Assembly: GCA_044892525.1 (NCBI GenBank)
Contig: CM097886.1
Location: 15,004,001-15,068,000 of the forward strand
Origin: Schmidtea polychroa
Taxonomy: Eukaryota
Length of the DNA: 64,000 nucleotides
Reading direction: 5' to 3'
Part shown: positions 3,241 through 60,957 of the stretch, piece after piece
Layout of the letters: each line of letters begins with the position of its first letter
Position numbering within the stretch: the first letter of the stretch is position 1
Notes under the pieces: model-generated
Database searches by the model: none
Seen by the model: the letters and a program-made list of their open reading frames with translations, nothing else
What the model was told of the DNA's origin: nothing
Translations under genes and position numbers: made by a program

Positions 3241-3478
3241 ACAGTTTCACTAGCCTTTATCGTTCTATAATAACCATACTGAAAGGTTTCGTAATTGAAA
3301 AAAACGTCGAATGAGAGTCTCTATGTGTGTTATTTCGGTGATATTGTATTCCATACGTGTAATATATTCGTGTTAGTGAGTGTGTATGTGTGAGGAAATC
3401 TGGAGAGCCCGATAGATGTGGCGGGACAATCGGGGTGCGTGTTGTGTAGGGATGTTATGACTATGAGTAAACAAAATA

Positions 3479-7089: not shown

Positions 7090-9290
7090 ATTACAATAGT
7101 AAATGATGATAATCAGAAGATAATAATTCCGCAGAAGATAGCGTCAAAAGTCGTACAGCATATGCACAAAGAACTCTGTCATTTAGGAGTTAAGAAAACA
7201 ACAAATTATATGAACGATTATTTCTTTTGGATACACATGGTGACCGATATACGAGATATTATAAAAAAATGTGATATATGCATGAAAAGGAAAGTTTTAA
7301 CAAGTAAAACAGCTGAATATTTAATTCCTAGAGTAATAATGAACTCGATTGAACAAATTGTAATCGATATTGCTCATATGAAGGAAACCAGAAACCGAAA
7401 CCGTTATTTAGTAATAATAATGGATCAGTTCAGCAAGATGGTTAGTTTAACGCCTACTCAGAACGAAGATGAAAAGACTGTATATCGTGTACTTTAACAC
7501 AATTGGATATACAAATTCGGTAAGCCAGCTTACATTGTTTCAGTTAGAGGTAAGGTTTTCGAGGGGAGTAAAATCAAAGAGTTAGTTGATAATTTTAACA
7601 TCGAATGGATATTTACTTCGCCTTATGATCATAAGTCTAATGGTTTAGTAGAACGGGAACTACGAACAGTTCGTGATATGATCGTGACATTTTTGAGTGA
7701 TGGTCGAACTGAAGGGTGTTGGAACGACATTATGCGAAATTTTGAATATTCCCTAAACTCAACAATACAGAATTCTACGGGATTTTCACCAATGGAAATA
7801 CTATTTGGAAGAAAGGTTAATATACATGGAAAGAATTCATTCATAGAAAGAGATGTGAAAGATACAGAGGTAACGGAAGAAGAAAATAATGTAATAAGGA
7901 AAGTAAACGATTCATAAAAAAAAGATTTTGCAGAATAGAAAGAGACAAAATACAAATACTCACATAAGATGAATGGAAATATGATATTGTTAGTTATGAT
8001 AAAATGCAAGGCCGACCAAGTATAACTATTAGAATACAAGACCAGAATATGGAATGCTTGTTCGATACAGGAGCTAGAGTAAATATAATGAGTTGGAGCA
8101 AATTTGAGAAACTTAAACTAACAACAACGGTTAATTCGTTGAGATGTGCAAATAATAGTGTTTTAGAATCGAAAGGTAAATTAGAAATAGGAATAAATGG
8201 CAGGAAAAGAAGGGTAACGTTTACGATAGTAAGATGTATGACTCCAGAGGTAATTGGTGGTATAGAGTTGCATAAAAAATTTGGTATGCAACTAAAGTTG
8301 CCAGTAGAAGAGATGGAGAAAACGAAGCAAGAGCACATATGCAGTATCGAAGCCAAATTTGGGAAGACAATAACGGAGATGGGACGATTTCAAAGAGCAA
8401 AGAATACTTTAAAGATAAATAACCCGATACTACTAAACATTATAAAAAAGAATCAAAGTGTTTTTATGACTGATAAATGGGACATTGGCTGCACAAAGCC
8501 ATTGAAGCATAAAATAGAAACTTAAGGAAAACCGCTAAATATTCAACCTTGACAACCAGTCAACTTGTAAGGTAAAATAGATGAAGCGATAAAAAATTTA
8601 TGGGGAAACAATATTATCAAAATGTGTAATTCGCCATGGGACACTCCATTAATATGCGCCTGGAAGAAAGAAATGCAAGATATCAGATTATGTCTTGATT
8701 TCAGGCAATTAAACCTAGTAACAGAGACAGGCATTCCCTATCCGAATATAGCAGAGATGTTAGATAGATTGGGTGAAGTAAAGTATTTCAGTTCGATAGA
8801 TCTTGGAAATGCATATTATCAAGTAGAACTAGAAGACGAATCATAGTTAAAAACGGCGTTTTTAACCAAATCAGGTCAATACTGTTTTAACAAAATGCCA
8901 TTTGGAATAGCAGCGGCACCAGGTACATTTCAGGAACTGACGGGAAAAGTATTAACGGGTACAAGATATGCAGCGGTATATCTAGACGATATTTGGATAT
9001 TTAATGAAACGAGCAATCATTACTACGAAGTCTTAAATGAAGTGCTGGATAAAATTGGAAAGGCGGGTCTTAGGATAAACCCTGAAAAGTGCCATATCCT
9101 TAAAGAGGAAGTCAAATCTTTAGGTCATATAATCAACAAAGATGGAATACAGGCGGACCCGTCAAAGCTAGACGCGATTATATCATTTGAAAAGCCAAAA
9201 TGTGTTAAGGATCTGAGAAGCTTCCTATGAATATGTAATTACTACAGAAGATTTATAAAGGAATACGGAAAAAAGGCAAGAGTTTTAACA
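7090..9290 (+). mobile_element. Degenerate Ty3/Gypsy pol remnant: integrase, then protease, then RT
   Basis: HHCC (HKELCHLGVKKT...CDIC) and core integrase (VIDIAH, FGKP.YIVS, SNGLVER, TGFSPMEILFG) at 7090-7917 in one frame with one stop. Protease CLFDTGARVNI (8004-8525). RT SPWDTPL, LCLDFRQLN, SSIDLGNAYYQ, MPFGIAAAPGTFQ, YLDDIW, ending at LRSFL(G)ICNYYRRFI. Confidence 0.9.
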
Positions 9291-12132: not shown

Positions 12133-15100
12133 TTAGTTATCAATGTAAAGGCTAGAACTAGAAATAATTCCTCTAAAAATACATTCTTGAGTTTGTTGAA
12201 ATAAAACTGCTGTTTCAAAATCTAGCATGACCTTTGCTGCAGATTCACAATTTCGAAGTAGTTCGTGAAGTCTTTGTAAACATCTAACAATGTCTCCACA
12301 TTGCGTATCTGTCACTTTTACAATGTCCGAAAACTTTGCCCCTGATGCCCACATTCGTATTGATTCTGCTAGACCGCAATTTATCTGAATTTCATGGCCA
12401 ATTATATTAAACTTTTCTTGAGATTTGTTTAGCTTAAAAATTAATAAATATTTTAAGATCAATACAAATAAGTTTTTACTTCGGCTACAATTTTAAAAAT
12501 TTCAATCATAATTTTTTGTAAAGATGGAGGGTTCTCTTTAAAATTGAATTCAGATGTTTGATTATTATTAGATTTCCCTTCAAATATTATGCATGCTAAT
12601 GATGCTGCAATGTCACATGGTAATGCATTTTGGAATATTCCCGACAGAATTATTTCCGTCACAACAACTTCATATGTTTCAATTTCACAAGCAATTCTAC
12701 CTTTTAATTTAATTGTGTCTGCTTTTGGATGTATAAAATTAAATTCCTTTAAAAAGGCTACTTTATTTCTATATTCAGGTAAAAATGCTAGGTTTTCATC
12801 TGATAGATTTTTTTGTAACTTATCAATTGTTACTGTCGTTTTTTCAATGACATCAACTTGTTTGATATGACTATTTAATGATTGGCACTTGGCACTTGGG
12901 TGAAGTAATAATGTACTCTGGGAACTTTCATAAGAAATGTATGTTTGAATAAGAGATTTCAAATGAGAATCCTAAAGAAAAAAAGATAACTGTAGGTTAA
13001 AATAACCGTTTAACTAACCTTTATATTGAGTTCTTTTTCATAGTTAGCCATTTCAATGGATTTACAAACATTGTCACAAATAGAGAGCATAGCATTTTTC
13101 ATTTCAAGATTACCCTCTATCCACTGTGACCAACTAGTCCTACGAAAAAATCTTGTCATCCAATATTTCTCTAAATTTTGTACATTGATTTTTATTTTCG
13201 TATTACATATTTTTTTAATATCATTAAGCGTGACTGTAAGAATTTTTGGATAGACATCATGTATCTACAGAAGGTTTGTGATTATTAATCAGAGTTCAAT
13301 GAAAAAATGATAACCTTTCTACGTTCCTCTTTATCATCAGGTCGTATTGGAACCAAAAGATCATCTTTTAGTGATTCATTTTCATCTTTTTTGTTTTCAT
13401 TAATCAATAGATCATATGTAAGGATTTTGATTTTGAATTTATTATTGTCCGTTGTCTGGTGAATAATACTTAATATGATTGAAGGTATCAAATATCTTCT
13501 TTGACTATCGATACCTGATACACCAGATGAATCGAGAATAACTATTCGACCAGGAATTAAAAAATTTTGAATTTCTTTTTTATTTTCGATTATTTGATTA
13601 ATATTTTTTCGTATTAATCGATACTCTATGCTTTTCTAAAAGGGTAATCAAGTCAGAGTTGATGTTCGAATTGAGAATTGGGATACCTGATGGTACAACA
13701 TCACATCCTCAATTTGACAATCATTGGTAGTGCATTGTAAACCAGTACCGTTGAACAATTTTAATTGATCTGACAATCTTTGATATTCTTGGCAGTTGTT
13801 GTCATATTTTTTCAATCTGTCAGCTTCAATAAAACTCTGTCTAATCATGTTCTAAATGATAATTGTTAAAATATTTCAAACATTTAGTCGAAAACCTGAA
13901 TATTAAATTGTTTGTTTCTATATAGACTTAAAATCATGTTATATGAAATTTTGAATTTAGATTCCAACTGTCCAACAGATCCTATTAGAGTTTTTTTCAA
14001 CTCGTCTTGGGAATATATAATTGTTCCAGGTTTGATTATAATTATAACATTTCCAATTTTGTCAAGACCTCGCCTGCCTGCTCTACCAGCCATTTGTGTA
14101 AATTCTCCTGCTAGCAGGAGTCGTTTCTTTAAACCATCGTGTTTTTGAATGCTATCAAAGACAACCGATTTAGCTGGCATATTCACTCCTACTGCAAAAG
14201 TTTCGGTTGCGAATAAAATTTTGACATACCCTTGGGAGAAAAGTATCTCTACTATCTTTAATAAATTTATTTATCAATAACCTTTTTAAAAGAAATTAAT
14301 TTGTACTTCTTTTAATATTGGAAGTAATCCTGCATGATGCATACCAAGACCTCTCATGAGCATTTCTTGCATCTCGATAACTTGAGGCAATTTTTTATCT
14401 GATGGATTGTGCATTTTTTTGTTAATTATTTCTTTGAAATACCTTTTCACATTATTTTTTTCAGCTAATATATTATTTTATTTCCATTAACTATAGTAAT
14501 AAATTTACTTTCATTTAAGAGATTAAGAGATTTCAAATCATTAGCTGTACCTTGAATTCTGTTTCGTGAAAATAGAAAACAAATTACGGGCAAGTTATCC
14601 GCTTCTTTTAATAGCTCAAACAAGGCCAACCACTGGTTATGATCTTTATTTGCAGAATTGCAAAATCCAGTTTGTTTAAGTTTCAATTCTAAATTGAATA
14701 AATGATAATACAAAAAGCAATTTATTTCATAGCTTACCGGGATTTTGATATTTAGGTTGTTTTGAAGAAGATTTCACTATTTTATTTGGTTGTTGATTTG
14801 AATTTGATGGTTTTGATTGAAATTTCTTCATAGATTTTTCATTATTCATTTTAATTGCTTCTTCGGCTTGTTCATAACCTGTTATTATTTGTTCAATATC
14901 AATATAAGTAACCACTTCTAAAATTTTACCTTTGATTAAGAAATTTTTGTTGTTATCCATCACTCGAAACAATTGATCTCTGTTGTATCGGCCAGTTCCG
15001 GTAAATAAATACATTTCTAGTGGTACCGGTCTTTTGGTGGTGCTGATAATTTGAATTTGTGTATCGCGTATTCTACCAAGCCATTCTGCAAATTCCATCG

Positions 15101-16221
15101 TGTTTGGAACTGTTGCGCTTAACATTACCAATTGAATTCTCTTCGGTAAAAGGATCATGATTTGTTCCCAAATATGACCACGGGAATCATCATTCAAATA
15201 ATGGACCTGTAGTTATTAGGTTGAAAGGAAAATGACAAATTAAATGTTTACTTCATCCATTATGACTACTTCCAAGTCTTGGATGGTGGGACAGCTATTC
15301 TTCAGCATGTTGTGAAGAATTTCTGTTGTCATAACAAGGATATATCGATTAGAACCTGTTTTTATATCGCCAGTTAGCAATCCAACATTTTCATTGCCGA
15401 AAGTAACTCTAAATTACTTAAATTAATGAAAGACAATATTATAATGTACTTAAATTCACGATATTTCTGATTTGAAAGTGCTTTAATTGGGCTAGTATAA
15501 ATAACACGAGCACCCCTGTTATGACACATGGCGATTGCATATTCGGCCACAACAGTTTTACCCGCTGACGTGTGAGCAGCCACAAATACTGATTTAGAAT
15601 CCTCCAAAGCTAGAATCGCTTTTTTTTGAAACATGTCCAACTCAAATGACCATTCCCATGCAGGATTAGGAATAAGCTCTTTAAAAGATTTACATGGCTC
15701 GTTTAAAATTACCTAAAATATGATTAACTTGCAATCTTTTAGAAAGATTAAATTCACTTGACGTGCGTAAGGTTTGTCCATATCTCTCTTGAATAGTTTT
15801 AAGTGATAGTTAGATTCCAAGTGTAACTCTAAATTTTCATTTATTTCTTTTTTTGGAATTTCATTCGAGTTCTTCAATATGAACTCATTAAAAGCTCCTG
15901 TGGGAATGCCTTGATTCATAAAATCGGGATTAGTAAGATATGGTAACTGAACAAAATTATTCGATAAATTTGTGGAATTTATTTAAAATCAATTAGAATT
16001 CTTCAATGGGTAATAAAATTTATTTAAATTAATAATTTTTTCACCTTTTCTATGATATTTGAATTGTTTATATCATTTTGTAAGAATAACGGTTGAATTT
16101 TCACTCTTGGGAATTTTAAGGACACAATGCTTGTATCTTGGAAGTTAAATTTTATCGTATTTGTATAGAATAATGACTTAATAGAGTCCAAGTTTAAGGG
16201 ATTGCAATATTGATTGAGCAT
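12133..16221 (-). CDS. SKI2: Superkiller RNA helicase SKI2/SKIV2L (DExH), multi-exon host gene
   Basis: Spliced translation gives [116 protein letters not shown] and [10 protein letters not shown]...SLY. Frame-preserving GT-AG introns: 15713-15757, 15409-15449, 15207-15251, 14879-14929, 14689-14737, 14465-14508, 14256-14306, 13852-13895, 13636-13686, 13265-13314, 12972-13018, 12433-12479. The first intron is unresolved (possibly 15947-16044). The long N-terminus and VFVAAH motif favour Ski2 over Mtr4. Confidence 0.92.
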
Positions 16222-29577: not shown

Positions 29578-30340
29578 TTTTTACAAATCCCCGCAATGTT
29601 CAATTATGTTAATATCTGGAGACTGTGCTGGCCATTTCATCTTCGTAATTCTATTTTCTTCAAAAAATTTTCTTGTAATCTTACTTGTATGTTTCGGATC
29701 ATTGTCTTGTTGGAAAACAAAATCACTAAGGTTCAATTTCTCGACAGAAGGTAGTAAATTTTCCTGTAAAATTTTAATATATTTTAGTGAATCCATTTTT
29801 CCTTCAATTTTACATAAATTTCCGACTCCATTTTCTCCTATACAGCCCCAAACCATAATACTCCTTCCATTGTGTTTGACAGTTTTTAAAGTACATTTAT
29901 TTTTTAATCTTTCACCAGCTCTACGCCATACATAGGTAATCCCATCACTATTAAACAAGTTTATTTTTGACTCATCAGACCATATAATCTTTTTCCAATA
30001 GCTTTTAGCCCTCATAATAATTTTTTTTGCAAATTCCAATCTAGCTTTTTTATTCTTTTTTTATATAAAAGGTACTTTTTAGGTCTCACCCTACAAACTT
30101 AGCATATTTTTTCACTTTTTAAAGAAATAATCTTTTTAAACTTGTTTTCGACTTTGTTAGCTAGTTTAGGACCCGATGTAAATCTATCTACTTCAATTAT
30201 TTTTTTAATTCAGCTAATTCTTTGTCGGAAAGTGACCTTTTTCTCCCAGAATTGCTTCTTTTTGATTTAAAATCTTGTTCAGTGTATGTATTTAATATAT
30301 AACTAATACATCTTGGGGTTACATGTAGTAGTTCAGCCAT
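29578..30340 (-). pseudogene. Tc1-like (DD34E) transposase, 3'-truncated
   Basis: WKKIIWSDESKINLF, TVKHNGRSIMVWGC, FQQDNDPKHTS, WPAQSPDINIIEH. A frameshifted N-terminal SGRKR motif lies upstream. Confidence 0.9.
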
Positions 30341-34274: not shown

Positions 34275-35177
34275 TTACACACCACCAAAATCATATTTTT
34301 CACGTATTTGATTGATTAATACATCAAACGCACGCTCATTTCGACAAAATCTTCTTCTCCACATGAATTCATCTAAGTACGAAGGAATGAAGCTACATCT
34401 AGTCCCAAACATATACTTAAATTTCCTTTTACATAAGGCCCACGAACCTTCTATTCCATTGGTGTTAACGCCGGTTAGGGGATCAATAAAGTGTTCCGAG
34501 TGATTCACCCACTGGTGTACATACGGTCCCAGTCTAGCTAAAGGTGTAGATGCATTTGGGTTTCGTCGGGGACCACCAGTATAGGTCGAGAATTCATCGG
34601 TCCAAATAGTCGTTCCCGGAAGTACAACACGCGAAAAAATCGGAAAAATTTCTTTTTGGGTCCTATTATCAACGAATTCAAAATGTACATTCTTCGTAGT
34701 ATAGTCTAGAATTCCGAAAACCCACCCACTGCGGGCATTCCGTCTCGGTTCGCCACGATTATGCAGCAAATTCATTAACTTGGACTCATCCGCTTGCACT
34801 ATATGATCTACTCCACCAAACAATAAAGGTTGAGATACTAACTTCCAACTGGCAATATCTCTGAAATACTGGTACCATTGAATTATAGTTTTTTTGGAAA
34901 TATCGGTGAAAAGCTGAACTTGTTTAATGGAGCATTCCGCGCCCCAAAAATACATCAATAGAAAAAGCTCACGAATATGCAGTTTTGAATTACAAAAAAA
35001 ACTCCCGTTTGTAATTGTTTGCTTGATTCGATGAGGATTTACGCGTGCCCGACTCCGGCAAACAAATATATATTCATTCACGACTTTGGAATCTTTAACT
35101 AGTTCCATAATACGCCCGCATCTCGCGCAGGTTGGATCGGCTCGTAACAAACCTACACTTTGGCAATGTCTTATCAA
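34275..35177 (-). CDS. Merlin/IS1595-family DDE transposase, at least 300 aa
   Basis: N-terminal CxxC, GSFF..SKL, GGVDHIVQADES, WVFGI, GTTIWTDE, VNHSEHFIDP.TGVNTNGIEGSW, SYLDEFMWRR. No stops; the true start may lie in or next to the N gap. Confidence 0.9.
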   Translation of the reverse strand: MIRHCQSVGLLRADPTCARCGRIMELVKDSKVVNEYIFVCRSRARVNPHRIKQTITNGSFFCNSKLHIRELFLLMYFWGAECSIKQVQLFTDISKKTIIQWYQYFRDIASWKLVSQPLLFGGVDHIVQADESKLMNLLHNRGEPRRNARSGWVFGILDYTTKNVHFEFVDNRTQKEIFPIFSRVVLPGTTIWTDEFSTYTGGPRRNPNASTPLARLGPYVHQWVNHSEHFIDPLTGVNTNGIEGSWALCKRKFKYMFGTRCSFIPSYLDEFMWRRRFCRNERAFDVLINQIREKYDFGGV

Positions 35178-35213
35178 AGACAGTGTGTCTCTTGAAAGTT
35201 CATATATTTGCTT

Positions 35214-35612
35214 NNNNNNNNNNNNNNNNNNNNNNNNNNNNNNNNNNNNNNNNNNNNNNNNNNNNNNNNNNNNNNNNNNNNNNNNNNNNNNNNNNNNNNN
35301 NNNNNNNNNNNNNNNNNNNNNNNNNNNNNNNNNNNNNNNNNNNNNNNNNNNNNNNNNNNNNNNNNNNACATCTTTTAAATAAGGATATNNNNNNNNNNNN
35401 NNNNNNNNNNNNNNNNNNNNNNNNNNNNNNNNNNNNNNNNNNNNNNNNNNNNNNNNNNNNNNNNNNNNNNNNNNNNNNNNNNNNNNNNNNNNNNNNNNNN
35501 NNNNNNNNNNNNNNNNNNNNNNNNNNNNNNNNNNNNNNNNNNNNNNNNNNNNNNNNNNNNNNNNNNNNNNNNNNNNNNNNNNNNNNNNNNNNNNNNNNNN
35601 NNNNNNNNNNNN
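35214..35612. other. Assembly gaps (N runs 35214-35367 and 35389-35612)
   Basis: N characters flanking a 21-bp island, in the 5' non-coding part of the Merlin. Confidence 1.
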
Positions 35613-38186: not shown

Positions 38187-41100
38187 CAGTGGTTCTTAAC
38201 CTTTTCAAAGACACGGAACACAATGATGTATATATTTTTCTTGCGGAACACTAACATTAAAAAATTTGAATTTTGGTATTTAGCAAGAACTTAAAATTAA
38301 TGAATAATAAAAAATCGAATATAATTTTCAACAAAGATATCTTAATTAAAATTATAAAGGATAAATTATTACATAGTTTTAAAAAATAAATTCTGAAAAT
38401 GAAATTAATCAAATAATGAACATAAAAGTTCGTTGATACAAATAACAAAAAAATCTTTAATGAGAAATTTGTGTCTGGTGATTCTTTCATATTTGAATAT
38501 CAAGTCTGATTTGAGATAGAGCTCATTTCCTCTTCTATATTATTAAGTCTTTCTCTTTTCTTGGTTTTTATGTTGGGTAATGTTGAGAAACCCAACTCGC
38601 AAAGATAAGATGTTGAAAAGTGTATTATAACTTTGAATGCCTTTCTTGATAAAGCTGGGTATTCTCTTTGGATAGAAATCCAAAATTCATTAACAGTTGC
38701 TTCTAAGGATACGGTCTGTTGACAGAGAAACTAATTCTTCTTCTTGTAAGGAAAATTTTGCATACGATGTATCAAAAATGGTGGTCATACAAGTGCGCAC
38801 GCTGACAAATATACTCACATAGACAAATGCGCACAAAAGAATAAAAATATGAATTTACAGTAAATAGTTTTATATTAAAATTGCATGCATTTATAATAAT
38901 AAATAAATAATAAATATGTACAAAATAAATTTTTATTTATTGCATTTATTGTCACATTAATTAAATATAAAATAATTGAAAAACCTCAAAAATTGACAGA
39001 CCGCCACTGATAATACCTGCATATAGCAGGTATGTTTCCTGTCTCCCGTTTTTGCTTAATCATTTTGTGTGCACTTTACTTCAATTATAATAACAGAAAA
39101 ATATAGCTAGATTATGACCAAGAAATTAATTGAAAATATTGACCAAAAAGAAATATAAACTCACTTCTTCCTTATTGCAAATTAGCTATTCGCCTCAAAT
39201 AGTTCAGCTTGTCCGGTTCTTCTTGATACCCCTGTAATTATTAGCTGCTTGTTCATGTAGGGCTTCATATTTTCTTTGCTTCGAATCTGGTTGCTCCATT
39301 CTAGCTTTTTCCAAAGTGTGTTTGTGGCATGCAAGATACCTTTCGAGGCTTTCCAGCAATATCCAGACACTTGGAAGGTTGCAATCGAAGATTAAGTTCA
39401 AAGTATTGTGTAAACCTTCACAACAATTAGTTGTTTTTGGGGAATTTTCCATTGCAGCTTCATTATGATTCAAAATTCTGATAGAAAATTGTGGCTCCCT
39501 TCCAACTGCACATTCGATGTATTTTGAGAAAAAGTATGCAATAAGTTCGTTGAACTTTTCATCGTCCGGTAATGTATTTGCTAGTGCACCAAAAACTGGT
39601 CTTACATAAATTTCTGGCACAAAAGTCAATGCAGCAAGTGATTGCTTCGTATTGAATTTCCAGCCCAATACTATTGACTTTTCTAATTATGCTTTGGCAT
39701 AAGTGAAAGTAACAACCTTTCATTACCGTATTTGAAAAAAAACGTTGACAGTACTAATACAGGCATTTTGAAAGTCTTTTAATACTTTACGTGGAGCCAG
39801 GCCTGGGATGAAATCCTTCAACATTTGCAACATTTTTATGTATATTGGTAGATTTTTTCTTTGCAAAAGAAAATATACACTCAGAGGATATGAATGACCA
39901 ACTTTAGTGTGCCAGATATAGTTGGAAAAACATTGTGGAAACTTTATCAAATGTGCCATCTCCATATATAGTTTCCTTATCCAATGACTGAAGTAAATCC
40001 TTGTCCCCAATTGCTAAAATTCTATCCGGGTAATCTTCTCCGGAATCAGTTTGTAATAGGTGTGTATACTTTTCAAGAATAGAAAAATCACAAGTGATCG
40101 GGTGCGGAAGATGCCCATCTTTTCTGTGTCTCAATAAAGTTTTTGTCATCGAAGATTTTTGCGGTAGATAAGCCAAAATATCATTACTCAGGCCAATCAT
40201 CTCGGTTCCTATCACGTTTTTTGCAGTAGCACCTACATGCTGGATATTATCCTTAATATTACTCATCACAATGTTGGCTTTGGCTTTTTGTGGACAGGAA
40301 TCATGCGAATGGGTACGTGTTTGTACAAAATTATTTCTATCTGTTGTGGCAATATCCTTGCAGTTGAAGGATTTTGATTCTCTGCATTTCCATGTTACTA
40401 TACCAATCGTCTTGTTTTCTCTATCTATTATATTAAAATCCAAGTTATGTCATCACTGCATTTGTGGTTCTTTGAATATTCCATGTAATCCTAGCATTTT
40501 TAAAATTAAAAAAAATACATTACTTCGGGTTGACAAGTTTATCTAACTATTTTATCTAGTCTTGTGCGCACTTGCCATTTAACCATCAAAAATGTATCCA
40601 TTCATAAAATTTTACATTTAAAGATGGAAAATAATTTTCAATTTTGGCTTCTAATAATGTTAAATGTTTTGTTATATCAGGAATGATTTCGTCGTACTTT
40701 TAATTATGAAGAGAATCAAACATATTTACTCTATTTTTTTGCATTATAAGAATTTTCCAAAGACAATTTTTCTTCTTAACTGCTGACAATTTGTCGGTTG
40801 ATGTCAAAATATTTTCATTTGATCCTACAGTGTTTACTTCATTTAAATATTTTAAAATATCAGTTAAATATGCCAATTTAGGCACCAAATATGATTTTTC
40901 AAATAATTTACAAAACATTATTTTCGTTTTAGAAAAAACCCAACAATTCATTTTTTAGTTCCAATATTCGACTTAATACTTAACCCCTTGATAACCATCT
41001 TACTTCACTGTGTAACAGCAAACATTCATACTGAACTTCCATAGATTCATATAGTTGTTTAAAAATGCGTGTTTTCAAAGGTCTTGACGTGATGTAATTT

Positions 41101-44791: not shown

Positions 44792-47397
44792 CAGGGATGG
44801 CAATTACATGGCACGCGTGCCAAACTTGGCACGCAGACAAAAAACTTCTGGCACTCTAAGAAATTTAAAAAAAGAAGTAGAAAAAATTCTTATTATAAAA
44901 TAATTACTGCTTTTTAAAAAAAAATTTGGACCCAAAATTTTAATCAACGGCTTTGAATTGAATTCTATATTTTTTTCTCTAGTTGGCTTTGCGTTATTAA
45001 ATAACGCAATTAATTATTAAATTTAGTTTATTTTAGCACTTTGATAAAAACCTATTTGCCAAAATAACGGTTATTTTGTACATACGTATATGGTTGTGTT
45101 ATAATTCTTGTATATTCTTACATCAGTTTTTAGTTTTGTTTTAACTTGTGCAGTTCAATAAAATTTGTGTTTAATTTTAAATAAAATTTATTTTTTGCTG
45201 AATTAAAATGGTACCAAAAAAACCAAAACTACAAGATATTCGTAGCTTTGTACTCTCTTGGACTGCTGATTACGGTTTTGTTAAACATGGAGATAAAAGT
45301 CGGTGCGGTCTGTGCTCTGAAATTATTGTATGTCGAAAGTCTTCTATTAAGCGACATTTTGAAACCAACCATAAAGAAATTGCCGAAAAAAATATTGAAG
45401 AAAGAAAAGAACTAATTTCTCAACGATTAAAGATAGCTGAAAATCAATCGAATTCATTATCAAAATTTGTAAAAACCAACAGCAATGTTACAGAAGCTAG
45501 TTTTGAAATTTCTTATTTGATTGCTAAGCAATCAAAACCATTTTCTGATGGAGAGTTTGTAAAAACAGTTATGTTAAAAGCGGCCGAAAGTTTGTTTCAA
45601 GATTTTAATAATAAAGAAAAGATTATTCAAAGAATTCGAGAAGTCCAGCTAAGCCGAAATTCAGTTAAAGATAGAATTTTAAAAATAAGTGCGAATATTT
45701 CTGATCAACTTTACAACGATGTTAATAGCTGTGACTACATTTCAATTTACCTCGATGAATCAACAGATATTAAGTCATCTGCCCGATTAGCAATCATTGC
45801 ACGTTATCCGAAAGATAATGAAATGCACGAAGAACTTTTAAAATTAGCAAATATCCCAGAAAGAACAAGAGGTAGTGATATTTGTGAAGTTGTATTCAAT
45901 GAATTAAACAAACTTAAAATAAATATTAAAAAAATCATTTCTGTAACGACAGATGGAGCTCCTAATATGACTGGACCAGAGATAGGTTTTGTTAATTTAT
46001 TTCAAAACCTAGTTGGTCATCCAATAATAGGCTTTCATTGCATTATTCATCAGCAAGTTCTTTGTGCAAAATTCGGAACTACCGATTTCAAAGAAATATC
46101 AAAACAAGTTAATAAAATCATAAATTTTGTAGTTGCACGCGACATGCATAAAAGACAATTTAAAAAACTTTTAAATGATATGGATTGCGAATACGATACT
46201 CTCTTAATGTGCAATAGTGTACGTTGGCTAAGTCGAGCGACATCCTTAGAACGATTTGTGAATTGCTTGGAAGAAATTCGACTTTTTTTACACGAATTCG
46301 ACAGGGATCGTTTTAAAGAATTATATGATACAGAATGGTTAACAAAATTAATGTTTTTACCGACGTAACATTACATTTAAACGTTCTTAATAAAAAATTG
46401 CAAGGACGAGGAAAAACAATTGAAGTTATGTTTGGATTGATAAAGGGGTTTGAAATTAAATTAGATATTTTTGCTAGAGATATCGCATCTGGAAAACATA
46501 ATAATTTTCCGAAACTTAAAAGTTTTTTAAATGAATCTACAATTTTCAAAAAAACTAATTGGAATTTTAATTACGAATTTTCTAAAGTTCTTGAAACTAT
46601 AAAAGAACAATTTTCAAATCGATTTAAAGATTTTAAAAGAATTGATAGGCTGTTGAAAATTGTAAATTATCCGGACTTATTCGATATACAGGATTTCGAT
46701 AACAACCTTATTAATTGGATGAAATTAGAAAATTTAGAAATGCAGACAGTAGATTTGCAATCTAATCCTATTTGGACACAAAAATTTGTGAATATGCGAA
46801 AAAATATAGAAGAATTGGAATATCATCGATTGTCACAGGATGGAGAGTCGGAATGCCGCATTGAAAACTTGATATTGGAAGTGTGGAATAGTATGCCAGA
46901 AGCATTTGCTTCTGTAAAAAAATTAGCAATCGCAATGTTAACCATTTTCGCATCCACTTATTACTGTGAGTCTTTTTTCTGTACTTAATCATGTACTATC
47001 AAAGACAAGAAACAGATTAACAGAAGAAGACTCAGCAGCTTGTATTACCTTACAATCGACAACATACCATCCTGATATTAAAAACCTTGCAAGTAATATG
47101 AAGCAAAAAACTTCTAACAAAATTTAAGAATTTTTTTATTAAATTTATTATTAAACTTTATAATTTTTTTTACTATTTCTTTATATTGAATAAATATTAT
47201 CACATGAACTCAAATATTGAAATTTATTTCTGTTTTCTTGTGAATAAAAAAATGAATAAAAAAATGAATAAAAAAATGAATAAAAAATGTATATATAGGT
47301 ACATATAACAAATAAAAGTTACGAGGGCACGCGAAAAAAATTGAATTTAAATTTAGTTTATTTTGGCACTTTGATAAAAACCTATTTGCCATCCCTG
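44792..47397 (+). mobile_element. Full-length hAT (SPIN/GTF2IRD2-like), 2606 bp
   Basis: 12-bp TIRs CAGGGATGGCAA and perfect 8-bp TSD CTTTATAG (44784-44791 and 47398-47405). Confidence 0.95.
45208..47120 (+). pseudogene. GTF2IRD2/SPIN-like hAT transposase with two frameshifts
   Basis: C..C...KRHFETNH, KPFSDGEFVK, LDESTDI, TTDGAPNM, HCIIHQQVLC, VRWLSR and STYYCESFF. Frameshifts near 46360 (MFLPT vs (F)TDVT) and near 46980. Confidence 0.9.
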
Positions 47398-51752: not shown

Positions 51753-53870
51753 CAGTGGCGTAACTAGGGTCTGGCGCCCGGGGCGAGTCAAAATTTTTCG
51801 CCCCCAACCTCAATTAATTAGATTTTTTAAATAAAGAAAATACTAATAGTTGGTTGTGATTACTGAAGATATCAGAAAGACATAATAACTTCATATAAAA
51901 TTAAATATACATTAGAGAAAAATTTCTTTTAAATTTTATTATATTTCATCTTATTTATATTACAAGTTAATTCTCCTTGATTTTACTGATGCAAATTTAT
52001 CAATTACTTCATCAAAATTAAATTTTTCCGTTGCCTTACGTTCTATACTTAATAATGCGAGATCACTCAGCCTATCTTGTCCCATTAATGCTCTTAAATA
52101 AGATAAAATTAATTTAAGCTTACTGAATGAACGTTCACAACTGGCAATCGAGATTCCAATTGTAAGTAGAATTTGAAGAGACGTTCTCAAACTGGGGAAA
52201 ATATCATCTCCATATGACACAATAAATTTTAGAAGATCCAATGAATTTGTTGGTTGTGTATCTTTTCCGCTCATCAAAAGCATTCTGCAATCTATAATGT
52301 CATTAAACAACTCTTCACCACTAACATCAGTATTATAGAATTTACTAAAATATGTGCAACTTTCTTTTAAGCCCTCAACACTCTCATTACGTAAAAGATT
52401 TTTAACATATAATAAAAATCCAAATTTTGAATTTAAATTGTTAAGAGCTTCAAATCGACTGTTCATTTCTTGTATTAATATTTCAATGATGCTTTTTAAC
52501 ACACTATCAGAAGCTTGTTCTCCTATCCTTTTTTTACTCGACGAATTCTTCTCATAATTTGAATGTCCCATTCTGTACATTTTTCTTGAGCAAATTCTAT
52601 AGCAGCAGTACATAAATTTTTACGCGTTTCAATTAAAGTTTCTTTAAGTCCATCTAAATCAAGCGCTGCGTCAAAAAATTCATTTTCGGATCTTGTAATC
52701 TTTTTTGAACTCGATCAATTTTGTTCAAAACATTATGCCAAAAATGAATCAAACCAAGAAAATTAAAATTTAAAAAATTTTGTAAAATGATTTGGGCTTC
52801 GCTTCTTGATTCTGTTGTTTGATTGGAGTCTTCAGAAAGTTCTTCAAGAAAATCAATGATTTCATTGAGTTGCAAAAAAATTACTTTTACAGCTTCAGAT
52901 CTTGCACTCCATGTTGTGGTTGTTTCACATTTCCAAGATAATTGTACAGCATCTTTTAATTTTTGTAGTCGTAAAGTAGAACGTGAAAAAAAGCAAAAAT
53001 TTTCTCAACAGAGCCAAAAAATGTCATTACAATTGGATCAGTTGCAGCTGAATGTAGTCCAGCCAGATTAAGGCTATGATTGTCGCAATTTATAAATAAA
53101 GCGCGATGATTCAAATAACAAATTCTCTTTTGAAGACCAGGAATACGCCCTTTCATAACTGCTGCGTTATCGTAGCATTGAGAACGACAATTTGAGATAT
53201 CTAAATTATCCAATTTTAATGAATTAATAATTGTCATTTCAAGTGTTTCAGCATCTTTTGCTTTTAGTTCTATAAATCCAAGAAATGTTTCTTTAATTTC
53301 AACATTTTATTTTCAAAATCAATGTCGATATAACGAATTACTTTTGCTAATTGTTCACGATGTTGTAAATCAGGAGTGGAATCAAAGAGCATCCCAAAAT
53401 ATTTATTTTTTCTAATATTGTTGAGCAAATCATTCTTCACTGTCATCGCAAGTAATGAAATCAATTCATTTTGAATAGCTGGTGATAAATAAGATGGAGA
53501 TCCAAGATTCTTGCGACAATTCTGTAAATGCGATGATAAAACTATTTCATATTTAGACAATAATTCAACCAGACTGAAAAAATTTCCTTAATTGTGCATG
53601 TTTGCATCACTTAATGTTTCAATATGCCCTCGTAATCCTAAATTTTGAAATGCCAGATATTGAATGCACGATAAAAAGCGTTTTAATATATCTCTCAATC
53701 GATTTCGTTCTGACTGAATTTGTTGCTCTAAATTCACATCAATTACAACACATTCATTTAAGCTTCATTCAGTTTCCTAAGGCTAATGTATGTATATATC
53801 AGTTATTAGCAAAGGCGTCTTTAGAAATTTGTCGCCCCTGTGCTATAAACTATAATGCGCCCCTAAAAAC
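51753..53870 (-). mobile_element. Degenerate ZMYM1/Tip100-like hAT, only the 3' terminus recognised
   Basis: Terminus CAGTGGCGTAACTAG at 51753. Fragments LGLRGH, LFDSTPD, SQCYDNAAVMKG, CDNHSLNL, SETTTTWSA and SIASCERSFSKLKLI...RLSDLALLSIE. Confidence 0.88.
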
Positions 53871-54648
53871 AATTTTTACAAAAATATATTATGTTTATTA
53901 ATAATATTACACATTATTGCATATACATATATTAATATTATATATTACATCATTTTATTTCAATGACTAGGATGTTTTATGTTTTTCCTAGGAAAAATAA
54001 AATTTTTGTTCCGGTATACAAAATTGAAAATGTTATAAAAAAAAGCTTACTATGTGGTATTTTAGTATTAATTTATTTTTTCTTTTTAATATATACTGAC
54101 AGCTGTATATTTATTAGAATTTCATTTCTGCTTATTGAATATCAAGACAGAGAATTTGCCTTTAATTAGAAAAGATTTTTACTTAATTAAAAATTTGTCT
54201 TTTTATTATCATTATTAATTTATTTAAAATATTTTCCCCCTATATTAAAATGTTAAATGTATTACTAAAGAATTATATTAAAATCACACATGTACGCTGA
54301 CTAAAAGAATAATCAGAATAAAAATAAAGCATACCCAAAATAAATAAATTACTTCATGCAGTATTTACAATCATTCAAAATATAACACTGTGAAATAAAA
54401 TACAGAATATAATAATAAATATATAGCATAATCAATAATAAAATAGCCAATTGTTAATATAGCATGTTCTATACAAGATGGATTGATTGATTTTGACTCG
54501 GATCTATCGCCTATCTTCGACACATACATTAACACTATATTTTCTGGGCCCCGTCCTGTATGTGAATGTGGTGATGGGCCTACCCTCATCATCCAACACA
54601 ATGTTATATGAAAAGATTTGACTTGCCAATTAATGGAAATAGTTTTTT

Positions 54649-55009
54649 CCCCTTGAAAATCTGAGGGAGCAGTTACAAATTTCGTTTCAAGCCGTACCGA
54701 TATCCGCAGCAGGCCTCCAAGGCGAGCAGCCTATAGTCTTAGAACAATTTAGGTAAGGGAAGTCGGCAAATTAGATCCGTACCTTCGGTAAAAGGATTGG
54801 CTTTAGGGACCGGGTATGATGAGCTTAATCAAGAAGTCGATTGAATTGGAATTGGGCTGTTTTGATTCTGTTTGGGGCAACCTGAGATGGAGTTGAAATG
54901 GAATTTCTTCGACTTGATTGATGGGCGGATTAGGCTATGATTTGTGAGTTTTCGGATTCATGGTCGTCATTGTGCAATTAACGGTCAACCTAGAACTGGC
55001 ATGGACTAA

Positions 55010-55043
<34 letters not shown>

Positions 55044-55074
55044 CGATGGCTGGTGAACGACTTTGACACAATGT
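54649..55074 (+). rRNA. Dispersed, diverged 28S (LSU) rRNA gene fragment
   Basis: CCCTTGAAAATC, GCCGTACCGATATCCGCAGCAGG, GTAAGGGAAGTCGGCAAATTAGATCCGTA and AGAACTGGC...GGAATCCGACTGTCTAATTAAAACAAAGCATTGCGATGG are conserved eukaryotic LSU segments. Only 426 bp long, with substitutions at normally conserved sites. Confidence 0.92.
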
Positions 55075-55273
55075 AAAAAAAATTAAAGTTTATTTTAATA
55101 CAATAAAATCCTATATAATAGGAATTACAACAATTAAAAAGAGCTGGTGCTCAATCTTTCTTCTTTTATAATTTTTATTTGATAATAGGCATCTTAAGCT
55201 ATAAAGTTTAAAATCGTAGATATAAGTGTAGTATAATAAATTGCTGGTATGTTCCCTTAAAATGTGATAACTT
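55075..55273 (-). mobile_element. Short 5'-truncated copy of the RLE retroelement 3' end, inverted
   Basis: The reverse complement matches 56670-56850 (last ORF codons, 3' UTR, T-rich tail) with about 10 substitutions and one indel of about 20 bp. Confidence 0.88.
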
Positions 55274-56850
55274 CCTCTAATTAATGAAGAAAACCTATAT
55301 ACCTATCTTGGAGTAGATATAGATATGAAAAGAAGCTACGACATCGATAAAAAACTAAATGAAGCTTTAATGGATACAAAGGATATAATGGAAAGTAATT
55401 TACATCCATCACAGAAGCTATATGCATATAAGATATTTATTTATTCAAGACTTATCTTTTGTTTCAGATACTGTATCCTAAACCATATGGTTTTAAACAC
55501 TGATAGGAATAGATCTGTGCAAATGAGAGATAAACAACTTGGATATGATCAGAAAATAAAAATAATGCTAAAAGATATGGTCAAGGATAAATTTCAAAAC
55601 ATGAATAATTACATTTATGCCAGTTGTAAATATGGAGGATTAGGAATAACCCAAGCTATGAATGAATACCTGATTCAAAGTGTGGTTCACTTTTTGAGAA
55701 TGCTCAATTCTAAAGACATTGACTTTAAGAATATGATTATAAATGAATTAATATGCTCCAGATGAAACGGATCATGTATTGATATTGCGATCAAATGGAT
55801 GAATAGGGAAACTACAGTAACTGGTATGAAATAATCCATTTTGCTCAAATTTAGAAAATCAGTTGAACGAATAAAAGAAAAATTCAGCATCTTGATACGT
55901 CTAAAGATTCTTGATGATGAATTCGTCTTGGAAATAAAATATGAAGAAAGATTAAGAATTATGAATAAAGATAATATGGAAGAAACTTGCTCAGAAATAC
56001 ATGACCTCATGAGCTTGATATACGTAGAAAGATGGCAAATTATGGTCTGCCAGGAACATATTGCAAAACGTCGGTGAAAGTAACTATGCGTCAACCTTCA
56101 TATAATCTGACTGCCTGACAGATCCACAATTTTATTTTTTGATTAAGGCTAGAAATGATATGCTGAACCTGAAATATAGCCCATTCAGACTAAAAGAAAA
56201 TCTAGATATTATGTGTAGACACTGCAAAATAATTGCAGAAACGAAGGCGCACATATTTAATCATTGTACTGAAAAAATAAATGCCAGAAGATTAAAACAT
56301 TCAAATGTCCTAAAAGTTGTTGGTGAATTTTTTATGTCAATAGGTATAAATGTGGATATCGAAACCTCTCCCATTGGAATTGAAGCCACACTAAAGCCTG
56401 ATTTATTAATCAAACCACAGAAAAAAGCTATTTCATATTATCGATTTAAAAGTACCATATGAAGATAATGAAAATTTCAAAAATGCAAGAAAGAAAAACT
56501 TTGAAAAGTATCAACATATTGCCTCACAGATTGGTAAATTAAATTGATGTCTAACAGTGGTCTCTGCACTAGTAGTGGGAACACTTGGCTCATGGGATCG
56601 AGAAAATGACTATATTGGTAAAGATAGGCTTATCAAAACAGGAAACTAAATGCCTTGCCGAATTATATCAAGTTATCACATTTTCAGGGAACATACCAGC
56701 AATTAATTATACTACACTTATATCTACAATTTTAAGCTCTATAGCTTAAGATGCCTATTATCAGATAAAAATTATAAAAGAAGAAAGATTGTTGTATTTC
56801 CTATTATATAGGATTTTATTGTATTAAAATAAACTTTAATTTATTTTTTT
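55274..56850 (+). mobile_element. 5'-truncated RLE-type non-LTR retrotransposon (NeSL/R5/Utopia-like)
   Basis: RT end YTYLGV, thumb YASCKYGGLGI, CCHC knuckle CRHC....ETKAHIFNHC, RLE motifs LKPDLL / IIDLKVPYE / EKY / VVGTLGSWDREND, and C-terminal SSYHIFREH with stop at 56704-56706. Several frameshifts. Confidence 0.9.
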
Positions 56851-58290
56851 ATCGGTACGTAGACGAAGAAAACAATATATAAATGTTTTGGATTAAATCG
56901 AAATAATAAACAGCTGCCGAACAAGTCTCCTCAGCGATTTCCAATTAAATTTAGGGAGTGACTTGAACATGGAATAAAAGTGGCAGATTGGTTTAAATTC
57001 TTAATTCCAGCTTGTAAACCATTATACTTGCCAGCCATTCTGGCTGCATTGTCGTAACTTTGCCCACCGCAATTTTTTAGATCCTATGACAAATTTATTA
57101 ACATTTTAATAATAGATTCTTCAAAATATTTGGACTCGTGACTCTTAATTTCCAAAAAGCCAAAATATCGTTCTTTTGCACATTCCTCTTTGTCAACGTA
57201 TCTTAATATAAACGTTAATTGATCTATGTGTCTTACGTCTGGCGTAGAATCAACAATCATTGAATAGTACATAGCTTCTTGAACCTCTGAAATTATTTTC
57301 TCTTCCTATCAAATTAATAAATTCAACACATGTCGTGTGAGATAAATAATTAACCCTGTAACTTCCAACATTACCATATCTCTCTATGTGATTCTTAAGA
57401 AAATCGTCAAACTGGGCCAAATATTCTATGCATGTTATAAAATTTCCTTTTCTATGTGAGTCAACACCTTCTCGGTGTCCTCGAAATGCTATACCCAAAC
57501 TAGCTAGCAATTTGATTGTTGCCACAATTCTTTCAAAACTTCTCGCCAATATTTTTGTTCAGCTTCAATTTGTTGAACTAATAAGGAATCAACGCGTCCA
57601 GTTGTTAATAATCTTTTTTTAACGTTAACATTGAAGAAAAGTGGTCTTTAGACAATTCATGTTCTTTTAATGCACGATTAATATTTTTCCAGTCATTAAA
57701 ACCAGTTGTAAATGTATTATTAGAACGTATAAAAAGTTTACAAATATAACTGTAACACATTTACTTTTTTCTGAAAAAACTAACCACTCGCGAAATTCTT
57801 TTCTGCCGTTTCCTTTAACACAATAAAAATTATTATTTGAATTATTTCTAAAATAGCTTCTATCTTTATGATGATATTTAACTTTTAAATTCATTATATC
57901 CCCGATATAATACAAGGTTTGTTAAGTAAATAATTGCTGGTCATTTTTTCTGATATTGTCAATGGCCATAGAGCAATATCTTTGGGGAATTCATTTTCGC
58001 TCTCTATTTTTTCACTATCGCCTGGTCCTTCCTCTTTCTTATTTACATTTTCGGAATTTTCTCTTGTTTCTGTTATAACCTGTTGAGCATATTCTTTCGA
58101 GCAGTGTGGCTCTTCAACTTCCTTTGTTTCCGAATCTTTATTTGTTTTGTTGTCTGTTGTTAAAAATTTTAACATCGCTTTTTTTGATTGCGTAATATTA
58201 ATTCCTGTCGTTTTCATTTGTTTTTTTTTGCCCCAGGCATGTATGTTCGTTTCATGGCTATAATAAAATAAAAAATATAAATACATAACC
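56851..58290 (-). mobile_element. ZMYM1-like hAT transposase pseudogene, 5' half, cut at the RLE junction
   Basis: FPKDIALWP, EWLVFSEK, LGIAFRGH, KGNFI, MIVDSTPDVRHIDQL, GQSYDNAARM and CSSHSLNL. It reads FSSSTYR right up to 56851. Confidence 0.88.
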
Positions 58291-58950: not shown

Positions 58951-59916
58951 AACAATCTAAATTTGCTCTAAAAAGTTTTGTATTTATATATTTAATTACA
59001 TTGTTAATTACATAAGTTAACTGCTATGTTTATTCCACTTGTGTTTTTTTATTTTTTGTATTAATTTATTTTTTTACCTTTTAAATTATGGGTTAAAATC
59101 AGGTGTGTGGAGTCGTAATAAAAAGTACCAAATCCGACTCTGACTCCAACTCCGACTCAAAAGCTAAATGAATATGTACATATTTATAAACATGGTGACA
59201 ATTAATAATTAATAGAAATGAATCAACATAATATAACATTTTATTTATTTTTATCAATTATTTTAATAATAAACAAAACTTTATAAAATAACAAAATTAA
59301 AAAAAAATTAATCTGCATTATTTGTCCTTAGAAATAAAATAAGCTTCAATAATATCCGGCTTCATTGATGCTCTCGAATTGGATCTGATGATTCTGAGTG
59401 GAGAAAATAACCGTTCTACGGAGACTTGTGTCGGCGGCAATGCAGTCGCGTTCAGAGCAGCCTCTTGAATAATCCCATGGTATCTATAATTTGCATCGTT
59501 TACTGCTAAATTTGAAGAACGGTCAAATTTCTCTACCTCTTTTAAAGCTTGGTAAAAGTCTATTTTAAATTTACCTAAGATTGTTGTAGTTTTCCTATAC
59601 TATCTAACCCTAAGCAACGACGCTTGGACTGCTCTTGCTCGTCCAAATATTTTTCAAAATCATCTTCTACAACGGCCCCAGGAATTAGATTTGATGAATA
59701 TGAAGATGTAGCAATACGTTGTTCATCTTGCAAATGGCTAATTCATACAAAGCATCTTTAGCTCTAATTTGACGTACTCCGGTAAGTAACACTCGGACCA
59801 TAGGATCAACGTAGATACCCGCTCGTAAGATATCCTAATTTCTGTGTATATCAATATGGCATCAAGTTTTGGTGCTCTGCAAGAAACCACAACACTCCGT
59901 ATTTTTGCAATTAGTC

Positions 59917-60957
59917 TGTTAGGTTCGATGGGTATGTCTTCGAACTAACACAAAAATGTTCTATCTGACTCCAAGTAAATAATTTATGCGCGTAGGTAAT
60001 CAAATAAATAAATAAGAGATATGTTTCAAATATTTATTTTCAATTAAAAGTTAGTTACACGTTTAAATATGTATAAATATAGTTACACCACGCTGCTTTC
60101 TCTAAGTATAGAAAACGGTTATTCAAACCGCCCTGAAGAGTGTTACTAAGTATCAAGGCTGGCCCTAAATGCGCCAACAGCCCGATATAGGTGAAAGGAA
60201 AAGAGAACGGGACAATCACCAAAATTTACGCTATAGAATTAACCCAGAAATTGGTTAATTCTTTTTAATAAATATTACTAACGAGACAACACAAAATTCG
60301 TGCTGACGTCAGGATATCCCCTAAATTTATTTAAAGCAAATAAATCCTTTATAAATACCTTTACAATTATCCAAATATTAATAATTAAAATATTGATAAA
60401 ACTAACTGATATTCCTTAAATAGTACTGAAGAGAGTTTTAATAATTATTCCACAAATTAACTATCGATTTGATATTTCCAATAATTATCACGATTTCTGT
60501 AATCCAACTGTCTATGTGCACAGAAATAAATTCCCAAAAATTTACGAAACTAATTTTCTTTCAATCGATACGATTCTTATCACTTGACGAAACTTGATCG
60601 TTACTATAAATATAATTGGTTCCTAATTTTAGTCACTGCGGTTTTTTCTCACTCCTATCTTCGTCCCTTCATCTAATTTTTTATCTGCTATTTATACCAA
60701 TTTATTTTACGTAATTCTATTAATAGTAATTGTTTAATTACTATTTTTTTTTATATATTTCAAATAATTCCTACAATTCTATTTTTAGTAATTATTTATT
60801 ACTAATTATGTTTTAATTTTAATTTTAGTATTTAATTTCTATTTTTGGTAATTTTAAAATACTATTTTTATTTTAATCCTAATTTTGGTAATTAATTATT
60901 ATTTTATTTATTATCTAATTTCGAACGTTTATTTCCGGTTCCTACTGAACCCCAACA
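59917..60957 (-). mobile_element. TGTT...AACA insertion E3 (1041 bp)
   Basis: Ends TGTTAGGTTC / GAACCCCAACA and perfect TSD AGTC (59913-59916 and 60958-60961). A-rich 5' tract on the minus strand. Removing it restores the hAT frame HASRLIAKIRSVV. Confidence 0.85.

What the first reader, a model, noticed from the sequence alone, without database searches (positions are those of the whole stretch)
54649..56850. Head-to-head RLE retroelement pair: a 200-bp 3' end inverted against a 1.6-kb copy of the same element
Seen: 55075-55273 is the reverse complement of 56670-56850, so the element body is bracketed by ~190-bp inverted repeats made of its own 3' end. The two 5'-truncated ends join directly at 55273/55274. 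The outer flanks do not match each other: 28S rDNA on the left, a hAT transposase cut at FSSSTYR on the right, and no TSD. Established: L1-type twin priming inverts 5' sequence but does not duplicate the 3' end. Inference: two independent target-primed reverse transcription events, on two different DNA ends, were joined at their 5' ends. That would be retroelement-mediated bridging of a rearrangement between rDNA and a euchromatic locus. A transcript across it could fold into dsRNA.
Basis: partly seen in the sequence, partly recalled or inferred. Interest (0 to 1): 0.7.

Follow-up and report, generated by a model that had tools for sequence, protein, structure and literature searches.

The report
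Head-to-head retrocopies carrying ribosomal fragment
Two broken copies of a flatworm-type jumping gene sit back to back with a short piece of ribosomal DNA attached, most likely the dead leftover of one botched double insertion of a kind already seen for human LINE-1, rather than a junction with the ribosomal gene array.

Summary
The structure is real as described: 55075-55273 is the inverted 3' end of the element at 55274-56850. The arms differ at 7 of 178 aligned bases plus a 21-nt indel, so they are two copies, not a fold-back. The element is a decayed NeSL-clade (R5/LIN-type) retrotransposon. Its poly-T end joins antisense 28S at exactly the published target site of planarian LIN24_SM/LIN26_SM. 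The right copy cuts a hAT transposase at FSSSTYR; about 1 kb of that gene is missing from the window. But the 28S is only 425 bp (54650-55074) and joins non-rDNA on the left, so this is not the rDNA array. Best reading (0.36): one complex insertion in which two element RNAs were copied from two DNA ends and joined at their 5' ends, one RNA carrying read-through 28S. Short-read contigs match the body exactly, but no listed contig bridges any junction. The same architecture is published for human L1.

The parts
54643..54648 (-). T6 run on the + strand, one base from the 28S start; reads as an A6 tail on the strand of the left copy. Candidate poly(A)/priming remnant.
   Evidence: Sequence; 0.4-0.9% of positions have a T6 this close; noticed after the fact; interpretation is inference
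54650..55074 (+). 425-bp 28S rDNA fragment, outside an rDNA unit; differs from the major rRNA at 6 or more sites
   Evidence: Rfam RF02543 E 1e-37; rRNA loose ends at 54650 and 55074, and six listed differences
55075..55273 (-). Left copy: last 199 nt of the LIN/R5-type element (ORF end, 3' UTR, T8 tail), joined to antisense 28S at the LIN24_SM/LIN26_SM target site
   Evidence: same junction in PMC4640811 S6 Fig
55274..56850 (+). Right copy: 1577-nt 5'-truncated, decayed NeSL-clade element: end of RT, thumb, CCHC knuckle, PD..D endonuclease, 3' UTR, T-rich tail. In-frame stops at 55763, 55832, 56545; frame changes near 56065-56115, 56432-56437 and probably near 56625-56660
   Evidence: tblastn of relatives, stops, relatives carry Peptidase_C48 + RVT_1; contigs with 0 differences over 55412-56827
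56670..56850 (+). Right arm of the inverted repeat (part of the right copy), lacking 21 nt present in the left arm
   Evidence: X4 contig 56263-56827 has 0 differences and 0 gaps
56851..58050 (-). 5' part of a decayed ZMYM1-like hAT transposase, cut after FSSSTYR; C-terminal ~346 codons not found in the window
54599..54649 (.). 51-bp unassigned non-rDNA spacer between a high-copy repeat end and the 28S piece; the left outer flank of the composite
   Evidence: loose ends at 54598 and 54650; no match to hAT C-terminal halves

Best explanation
A single, old, complex retrotransposition event of a LIN24/LIN26-like element. One element RNA was reverse-transcribed from a nick inside the hAT (right copy, 1.58 kb). 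A second RNA came from a copy sitting antisense in 28S rDNA and had read 425 nt through its tail into the 28S; it was reverse-transcribed from a second DNA end at 54649 (28S piece plus 199 nt of element). The two incomplete cDNAs were joined at 55273/55274, and at least 1 kb of target DNA was lost or moved. The 28S piece is thus a 3'-transduced passenger, not the rDNA locus. Shown: anatomy, two distinct copies, family target site, truncated hAT, non-rDNA left flank. Inferred: simultaneity, RNA origin of the 28S piece, priming at 54649. The locus is a dead relic with no evident function. Together with the template-jump rival, 'one event, 28S carried in as RNA' has about 0.53.
For: 28S ends after 425 bp against non-rDNA. 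Left junction equals the LIN24/26 junction. In S6 Fig of PMC4640811, 5 of the 14 LIN24_SM rows with a 28S flank leave the 28S after 25-28 nt, one into an A-run, none into a new T tail (my count by eye and my reading as transduction); 7 of 30 LIN26_SM rows have A-rich tails and 22 of 30 are off the 28S site. A6 on the left copy's strand one base past the 28S end, chance 0.4-0.9%. Arm divergence of 7/178 is compatible with both arms decaying 1.4-2.7% each since one event. The family seems small (summed depth 107-229 against about 20 for exact contigs in X1; a rough guide only), so two unrelated insertions side by side are unlikely. Opposite-orientation two-template insertions are described for L1.
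Against: No empty site or reciprocal junction could be examined (no genome). No listed contig bridges any junction. The T6 was noticed after the fact, the genome is about 70% AT, and a C that does not match the rRNA lies between it and the 28S. 425 nt is far longer than the 25-28 nt flanks in S6 Fig, which could also be insertions into 28S-like sequence; the paper's main text has no 'transduc'. Arm divergence fits two older source copies equally well. Loss of 1 kb or more of hAT means the two ends were not a clean single cut.
Confidence: 0.36

Rival explanations
1. One reading: two simultaneous target-primed events on two DNA targets, one a 28S sequence already in the DNA (an orphan fragment, or less likely the array followed by a second break 425 bp upstream) and one the hAT, were joined in trans, making a deletion, inversion or translocation.
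For: Left junction is the exact family target. Flanks do not match, no TSD, hAT 3' half absent from the window. Same outcome described for L1 bridges.
Against: Needs a pre-existing orphan 28S or an extra break, since rDNA stops at 54650. No reciprocal product seen, though none could be searched for.
Confidence: 0.22
2. One priming event plus a template jump. The RT primed in the hAT, copied 1.58 kb of element RNA, then jumped to the 3' end of a second RNA: an rRNA precursor from a unit with an antisense insertion (28S followed by 199 nt of antisense element). That RNA is complementary to the 3' end of the first, which could have held it in the complex. The whole 2.2 kb is then one cDNA strand and 54649/54650 is its 5' junction.
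For: The 28S piece has the same orientation as the right copy. 28S/L1 chimeras are 50-482 nt and 83% in sense, ascribed to ligation or template switching (PMC13174262). R2 proteins jump templates and add extra RNAs at 5' junctions (PMC11371274). No clear microhomology is needed and at most 0-3 nt is possible at 55273/74. The arms can form a -229 kcal/mol duplex.
Against: Needs Pol I read-through into the antisense element ending at about 199 nt, not shown. Does not predict the T6 at 54643-54648. The arm differences show no clear editing pattern.
Confidence: 0.17
3. No special mechanism: two separate insertions (one in a 28S fragment, one in the hAT) or a DNA-level filler copied from an inserted rDNA unit, brought together by later deletion, possibly favoured by the instability of inverted copies.
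For: The region is a mosaic of truncated, decayed transposons. Arms differ by 3.9% plus an indel. Internal inversion junctions from nested or fragmented elements are common in Drosophila (PMC5932611). Instability of inverted repeats is recalled knowledge; my search for it returned 0 papers.
Against: Two copies of an apparently small family would have to lie close by chance, or the deletion be very large. No homology at the central junction.
Confidence: 0.17
4. Assembly artefact: a chimeric or fold-back read joined unrelated loci.
For: No listed contig bridges the four junctions, and none is listed for the left arm. Residual depth that could be the window's 28S allele appears at only 2 of 6 variant sites in the DNA-like runs (54803: 20 in X1, 40 in X4; 54929: 11 in X1).
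Against: Fold-back copies would be identical; 7/178 differences at 0.1% error has P about 1e-9. The left arm ends at a biologically exact target site. Body and flanks match contigs of two runs with 0 differences at similar depth (17-26). The central junction has no repeat homology for a misjoin.
Confidence: 0.08

Closest known systems
LIN24_SM and LIN26_SM (R5/LIN lineage, NeSL clade; Schmidtea mediterranea; Kojima & Jurka 2015, PMC4640811, S6 Fig)
   Same: Poly-T 3' end, antisense insertion at the identical 28S position, off-target copies inside other transposons; the last 30 nt resemble LIN26_SM by eye.
   Different: The sequence further upstream in the 3' UTR differs, so this is a separate family in a host whose 28S differs from the S. 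mediterranea row. No head-to-head pair is shown in the parts I read.
L1 bridges made of two inverted, 5'-joined L1 copies (bioRxiv 10.1101/2024.08.27.596794) and two-template opposite-orientation L1 insertions (PMC11702581)
   Same: Two 5'-truncated copies, inverted, joined at 5' breakpoints, a tail at each outer end, non-matching flanks.
   Different: Those are somatic or cell-culture events of an APE-endonuclease element with reciprocal junctions resolved; here an RLE element, an old decayed locus, a 28S passenger, and no reciprocal junction in view.
[quoted passage not shown]
   Same: A 50-482 nt 28S piece at the 5' side of a truncated element, mostly in sense; here 425 nt in sense to the right copy.
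   Different: Here an inverted element 3' end at the family's own target site lies between the 28S piece and the element, and there is no TSD.
R2 snap-back 5' junctions (PRINT, PMC11371274)
   Same: Antisense element sequence at the 5' junction of an RLE-element insertion.
   Different: Snap-back copies the same cDNA and would run on into the primed flank (the hAT); here the inverted arm runs into 28S and differs from the other arm.

Membership tests
NeSL clade, R5/LIN lineage | RT followed by CCHC knuckle and PD..D/E restriction-like endonuclease | tested here: met
   Window frames align with relatives over RT end, knuckle (CRHC..H..NHC) and PD..D region; Pfam itself gave no hit on the three window pieces
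NeSL clade, R5/LIN lineage | Ulp1-like protease upstream of RT | tested here: inconclusive
   That part is absent from this truncated copy; 4 of 5 relatives scanned carry Peptidase_C48, at only about 26-33% identity to the window piece
NeSL clade, R5/LIN lineage | RT phylogeny inside the R5/LIN cluster | not testable with these tools
   Only the last RT motif is present and no named Repbase proteins were at hand; relatives are unnamed
LIN24_SM/LIN26_SM-type 28S targeting | 3' end joined to antisense 28S at the published site | tested here: met
   (one copy only)
LIN24_SM/LIN26_SM-type 28S targeting | Poly-T 3' tail | tested here: met
   T8 on the left copy, T7 on the right
LIN24_SM or LIN26_SM themselves | 3' UTR sequence identity | tested here: not met
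   By eye against S6 Fig rows: only the last 30 nt resemble LIN26_SM; LIN24_SM does not match
L1-type twin priming | One RNA, one tail, non-overlapping inverted 5' part, TSD | tested here: not met
   3' end present twice with two tails, no TSD
Snap-back junction | Inverted arm copied from the same cDNA, continuing into the primed flank | tested here: not met
   Arm continues into 28S, not the hAT, and holds 21 nt that the other arm lacks
Two-RT bridge of a rearrangement | Two tails outward, 5'-5' joint, mismatched flanks | tested here: met
Two-RT bridge of a rearrangement | Reciprocal junction or empty alleles of both targets | not testable with these tools
   No genome held; single read-laying run used
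rDNA array junction | rDNA continues outward from the insertion | tested here: not met
   28S ends at 54650 against non-rDNA

The most novel reading that the evidence does not exclude
An antisense-inserting rDNA retrotransposon captured the rRNA read-through transcript of one of its own insertions because that transcript base-pairs with the element RNA's 3' end, and its RT jumped onto it. That would be a sense-antisense-guided route that scatters rDNA pieces and builds element-derived inverted repeats, and it predicts recurrent '28S + inverted 3' end + element' composites in planarian genomes.
Probability: 0.17. Interest if true: 0.6.

Novelty: new variant of a known kind. Interest (0 to 1): 0.3.

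Why it matters
If the junctions hold, it is a natural, apparently inherited example of a restriction-like-endonuclease retrotransposon making a two-template insertion with loss of 1 kb or more of target DNA, an outcome described for L1. That bears on how rDNA fragments spread, on structural change in flatworm genomes, and on rare by-products of R2-type gene insertion tools. As a single decayed locus it cannot settle the mechanism, and it has no evident function.

Tried and rejected
Whole genome: none held, so no genome-wide count of composites, empty site or reciprocal junction. Rfam at gathering threshold gave 0 matches for the window and missed the fragment that one search found, so it is weak evidence against other rDNA in the window; a BLAST of 53901-55074 found no second 28S copy. 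Expression: no RNA holder listed; the run guessed to be RNA (X7) has no cover in 55112-55412 and only a 12%-diverged piece in the body; neither is evidence either way. Element relatives by word index: none. Metagenome scans for the family: none. A first hAT search used the wrong frame and found nothing; repeated correctly. hAT 3' half or terminus in the left flank: not found. The 3' UTR folds no better than shuffles (z 0.19). Twin priming and snap-back rejected (see membership test). Reading the A8 after the 28S as the poly(A) of an rRNA pseudogene rejected: it is the element's T tail at the known site. Using the 28S differences as a clock dropped: all six are transitions and the four that are paired in the window's own fold keep pairing, so they may come from a minor rDNA variant rather than decay. 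Scan look-ups by sequence, place, relatives and words found nothing on this DNA. Literature: searches listed no head-to-head case for an RLE element, judged from listings and the passages read; the library lacks most subscription papers, and the original R5 paper (Burke 2003) was not read.

Full report
Observation. 55075-55273 (199 nt) is the reverse complement of 56670-56850 (181 nt), with 7 substitutions in 178 aligned bases, a 21-nt indel between two ATTG words and a 3-nt tail difference. The left arm abuts the body directly at 55273/55274. If the left arm ran on, its next bases would not match the body, and at most 0-3 nt of microhomology is possible, judged from the residue that precedes this point in relatives (7 of 10 have I-P). 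No target-site duplication was found.

The element. 55274-56850 encodes the end of an RT, thumb, CCHC knuckle and PD..D endonuclease, in three aligned frames with stops at 55763, 55832 and 56545. It is dead. HMMER found 68 relatives, the best at 32-33% identity; 4 of the 5 scanned carry a Ulp1 protease before the RT, as NeSL elements do (PMC4640811, passages). The relatives are unnamed. The decisive link is the junction: S6 Fig of Kojima & Jurka 2015 (parts 1 and 2 of 3 read) shows planarian LIN24_SM and LIN26_SM ending in poly-T joined to antisense 28S at the same base as the left copy here. This site lies roughly 90 nt upstream of the R2 site (R2 position recalled). LIN26_SM is loose: 8 of 30 rows are at the 28S site, the rest in other transposons or elsewhere, and 7 of 30 have A-rich tails (my count). 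An off-target copy in a hAT is therefore ordinary for this lineage. One search shows one more family 3' end joined to non-rDNA (joint to 55074 in X1 and X4). The host looks like a triclad flatworm from this match and from scan notes; I did not identify it further.

The flanks. On the right, a ZMYM1-like hAT transposase is cut after FSSSTYR. All 57 of 120 relatives matching my motif continue with W, the 29 long ones by a median of 346 residues, and that half is not in the window; hits of the C-terminal halves fall on other hAT copies only. On the left, the 28S runs only from 54650 to 55074. In the run guessed to be RNA, 19 contigs continue differently before 54650 and 21 continue as rRNA after 55074. 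Left of 54650 lie 51 unassigned bases, the end of a high-copy repeat at 54598, low-copy DNA and another hAT. So this is not the rDNA array. The piece differs from the major rRNA at six listed sites (822 further rows over the whole 9 kb were not shown). All six are transitions and the four paired ones keep pairing in the window's own fold, so decay and a minor rDNA variant are both possible.

Is it real? I laid 4 of the 16 listed runs, all as short-read contigs. X1 and X4 (one study, possibly the source of the assembly, so not independent) match the body with 0 differences over 55412-56591 and 55412-56827, including the right arm's 21-nt gap, at depth 19-25, like the flanks (17-26). X5, from another study, has contigs about 1-2% different over both flanks and body, compatible with an allele but not proof. 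No listed piece bridges any junction or covers the left arm; 32 pieces were shown and 8173 not. Residual depth that could be the window's 28S letter shows at 2 of the 6 sites. A fold-back artefact is excluded by the arm differences (P about 1e-9) and by the exact target site; a misjoin is unlikely but open (0.08).

Mechanism. Any model must bring together two element 3' ends, a short 28S piece in its native junction, and loss of 1 kb or more of hAT. I favour one event with two RNA templates primed from two DNA ends, the left RNA being a read-through from a 28S-resident copy (0.36). For it: the 28S stops abruptly; an A6 follows it on the left copy's strand (chance 0.4-0.9%); 5 of 14 LIN24_SM rows with a 28S flank leave it after 25-28 nt, one into an A-run (my reading, not the authors'); arm divergence fits a common date; the family looks small (rough). 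Against it: the A6 was noticed afterwards and one unmatched base intervenes; 425 nt is much longer than those flanks; no empty site was seen. A template jump onto an rRNA read-through transcript explains the same sequence with one priming event (0.17). Sequential insertion plus deletion has 0.17. The sequence alone cannot separate these.

Comparison. The head-to-head, two-tailed architecture is published for L1: tumour bridges (10.1101/2024.08.27.596794, passages and section 9) and two-template insertions in culture (PMC11702581, passages and section 7). PMC7058536 (passages) describes single-L1 bridges. 28S/L1 chimeras of this size are known (PMC13174262, passages), as are template jumps and snap-backs for R2 (PMC11371274, passages). 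PMC5035012, PMC2718515 and PMC5932611 were seen as passages. Searches listed no head-to-head case for an RLE element; bioRxiv supplements were closed and may hold closer L1 examples. It works like a two-RT L1 bridge; it is not twin priming or snap-back; its element is of the LIN24/26 type but is neither family.

dsRNA. The arms could pair (-229 kcal/mol, perfect runs up to 45 bp). Whether the locus is transcribed is untested.

Verdict. A real, correctly described oddity; a new variant of a known kind; a single decayed locus with unverified junctions and no evident function. Interest 0.3.

Noticed in passing
run contigs of X1 and X4, joint to window 55074 (table 5c): Another copy of the family ends at a non-rDNA site next to a high-copy repeat like the one near 60049. 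Both off-target 3' flanks seen (this one and the hAT) begin ATC, while the 28S flank begins ACA; only two cases.
   Followed up: partly
window 54548-54598: End of a high-copy repeat; 69-76 contigs per DNA-like run leave the window at 54598 with varied flanks. Its end resembles an LTR terminus (recalled motif).
   Followed up: no
window 51960-53750 (-): A second, distinct ZMYM1-like hAT transposase, 5'-truncated and frameshifted, about 1.4-2.7% from deeper contigs; a very high-copy short repeat adjoins it near 53860.
   Followed up: partly
window 54714-54929: 28S differences from the major rRNA are all transitions, and about 5% of the depth in the RNA-like run lacks the major letter at 54714 and 54723; a minor rDNA type is possible. 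Two rDNA types in dugesiid planarians is recalled knowledge.
   Followed up: partly
window 4706-6799 (+): Unbroken 697-aa frame with BED finger and hAT dimerisation domain, possibly a young or domesticated transposase.
   Followed up: no
window 12133-15712 (-): Intron-split helicase gene with DEAD and DSHCT domains, SKI2-like (name recalled); the only clear host gene noticed.
   Followed up: no
window 1071-3246, 7063-9230, 29581-30060, 34275-35200, 39204-40449, 45202-46988: Fragments of LTR retroelements (RVT_1, rve_3), a DDE_3 transposase, an ISXO2-like transposase, a FLYWCH-bearing element and a Spin-like transposase.
   Followed up: no
window 35214-35367 and 35389-35612: Two runs of N, 378 bases in all.
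   Followed up: no
window 59900-60230: Very high-depth short repeat (8,000-40,000 in DNA-like runs) inside a further decayed hAT-like sequence on the minus strand.
   Followed up: no
PMC4640811 S6 Fig, LIN24_SM rows: 5 of 14 rows with a 28S flank leave the 28S after 25-28 nt, which looks like unremarked 3' transduction.
   Followed up: partly
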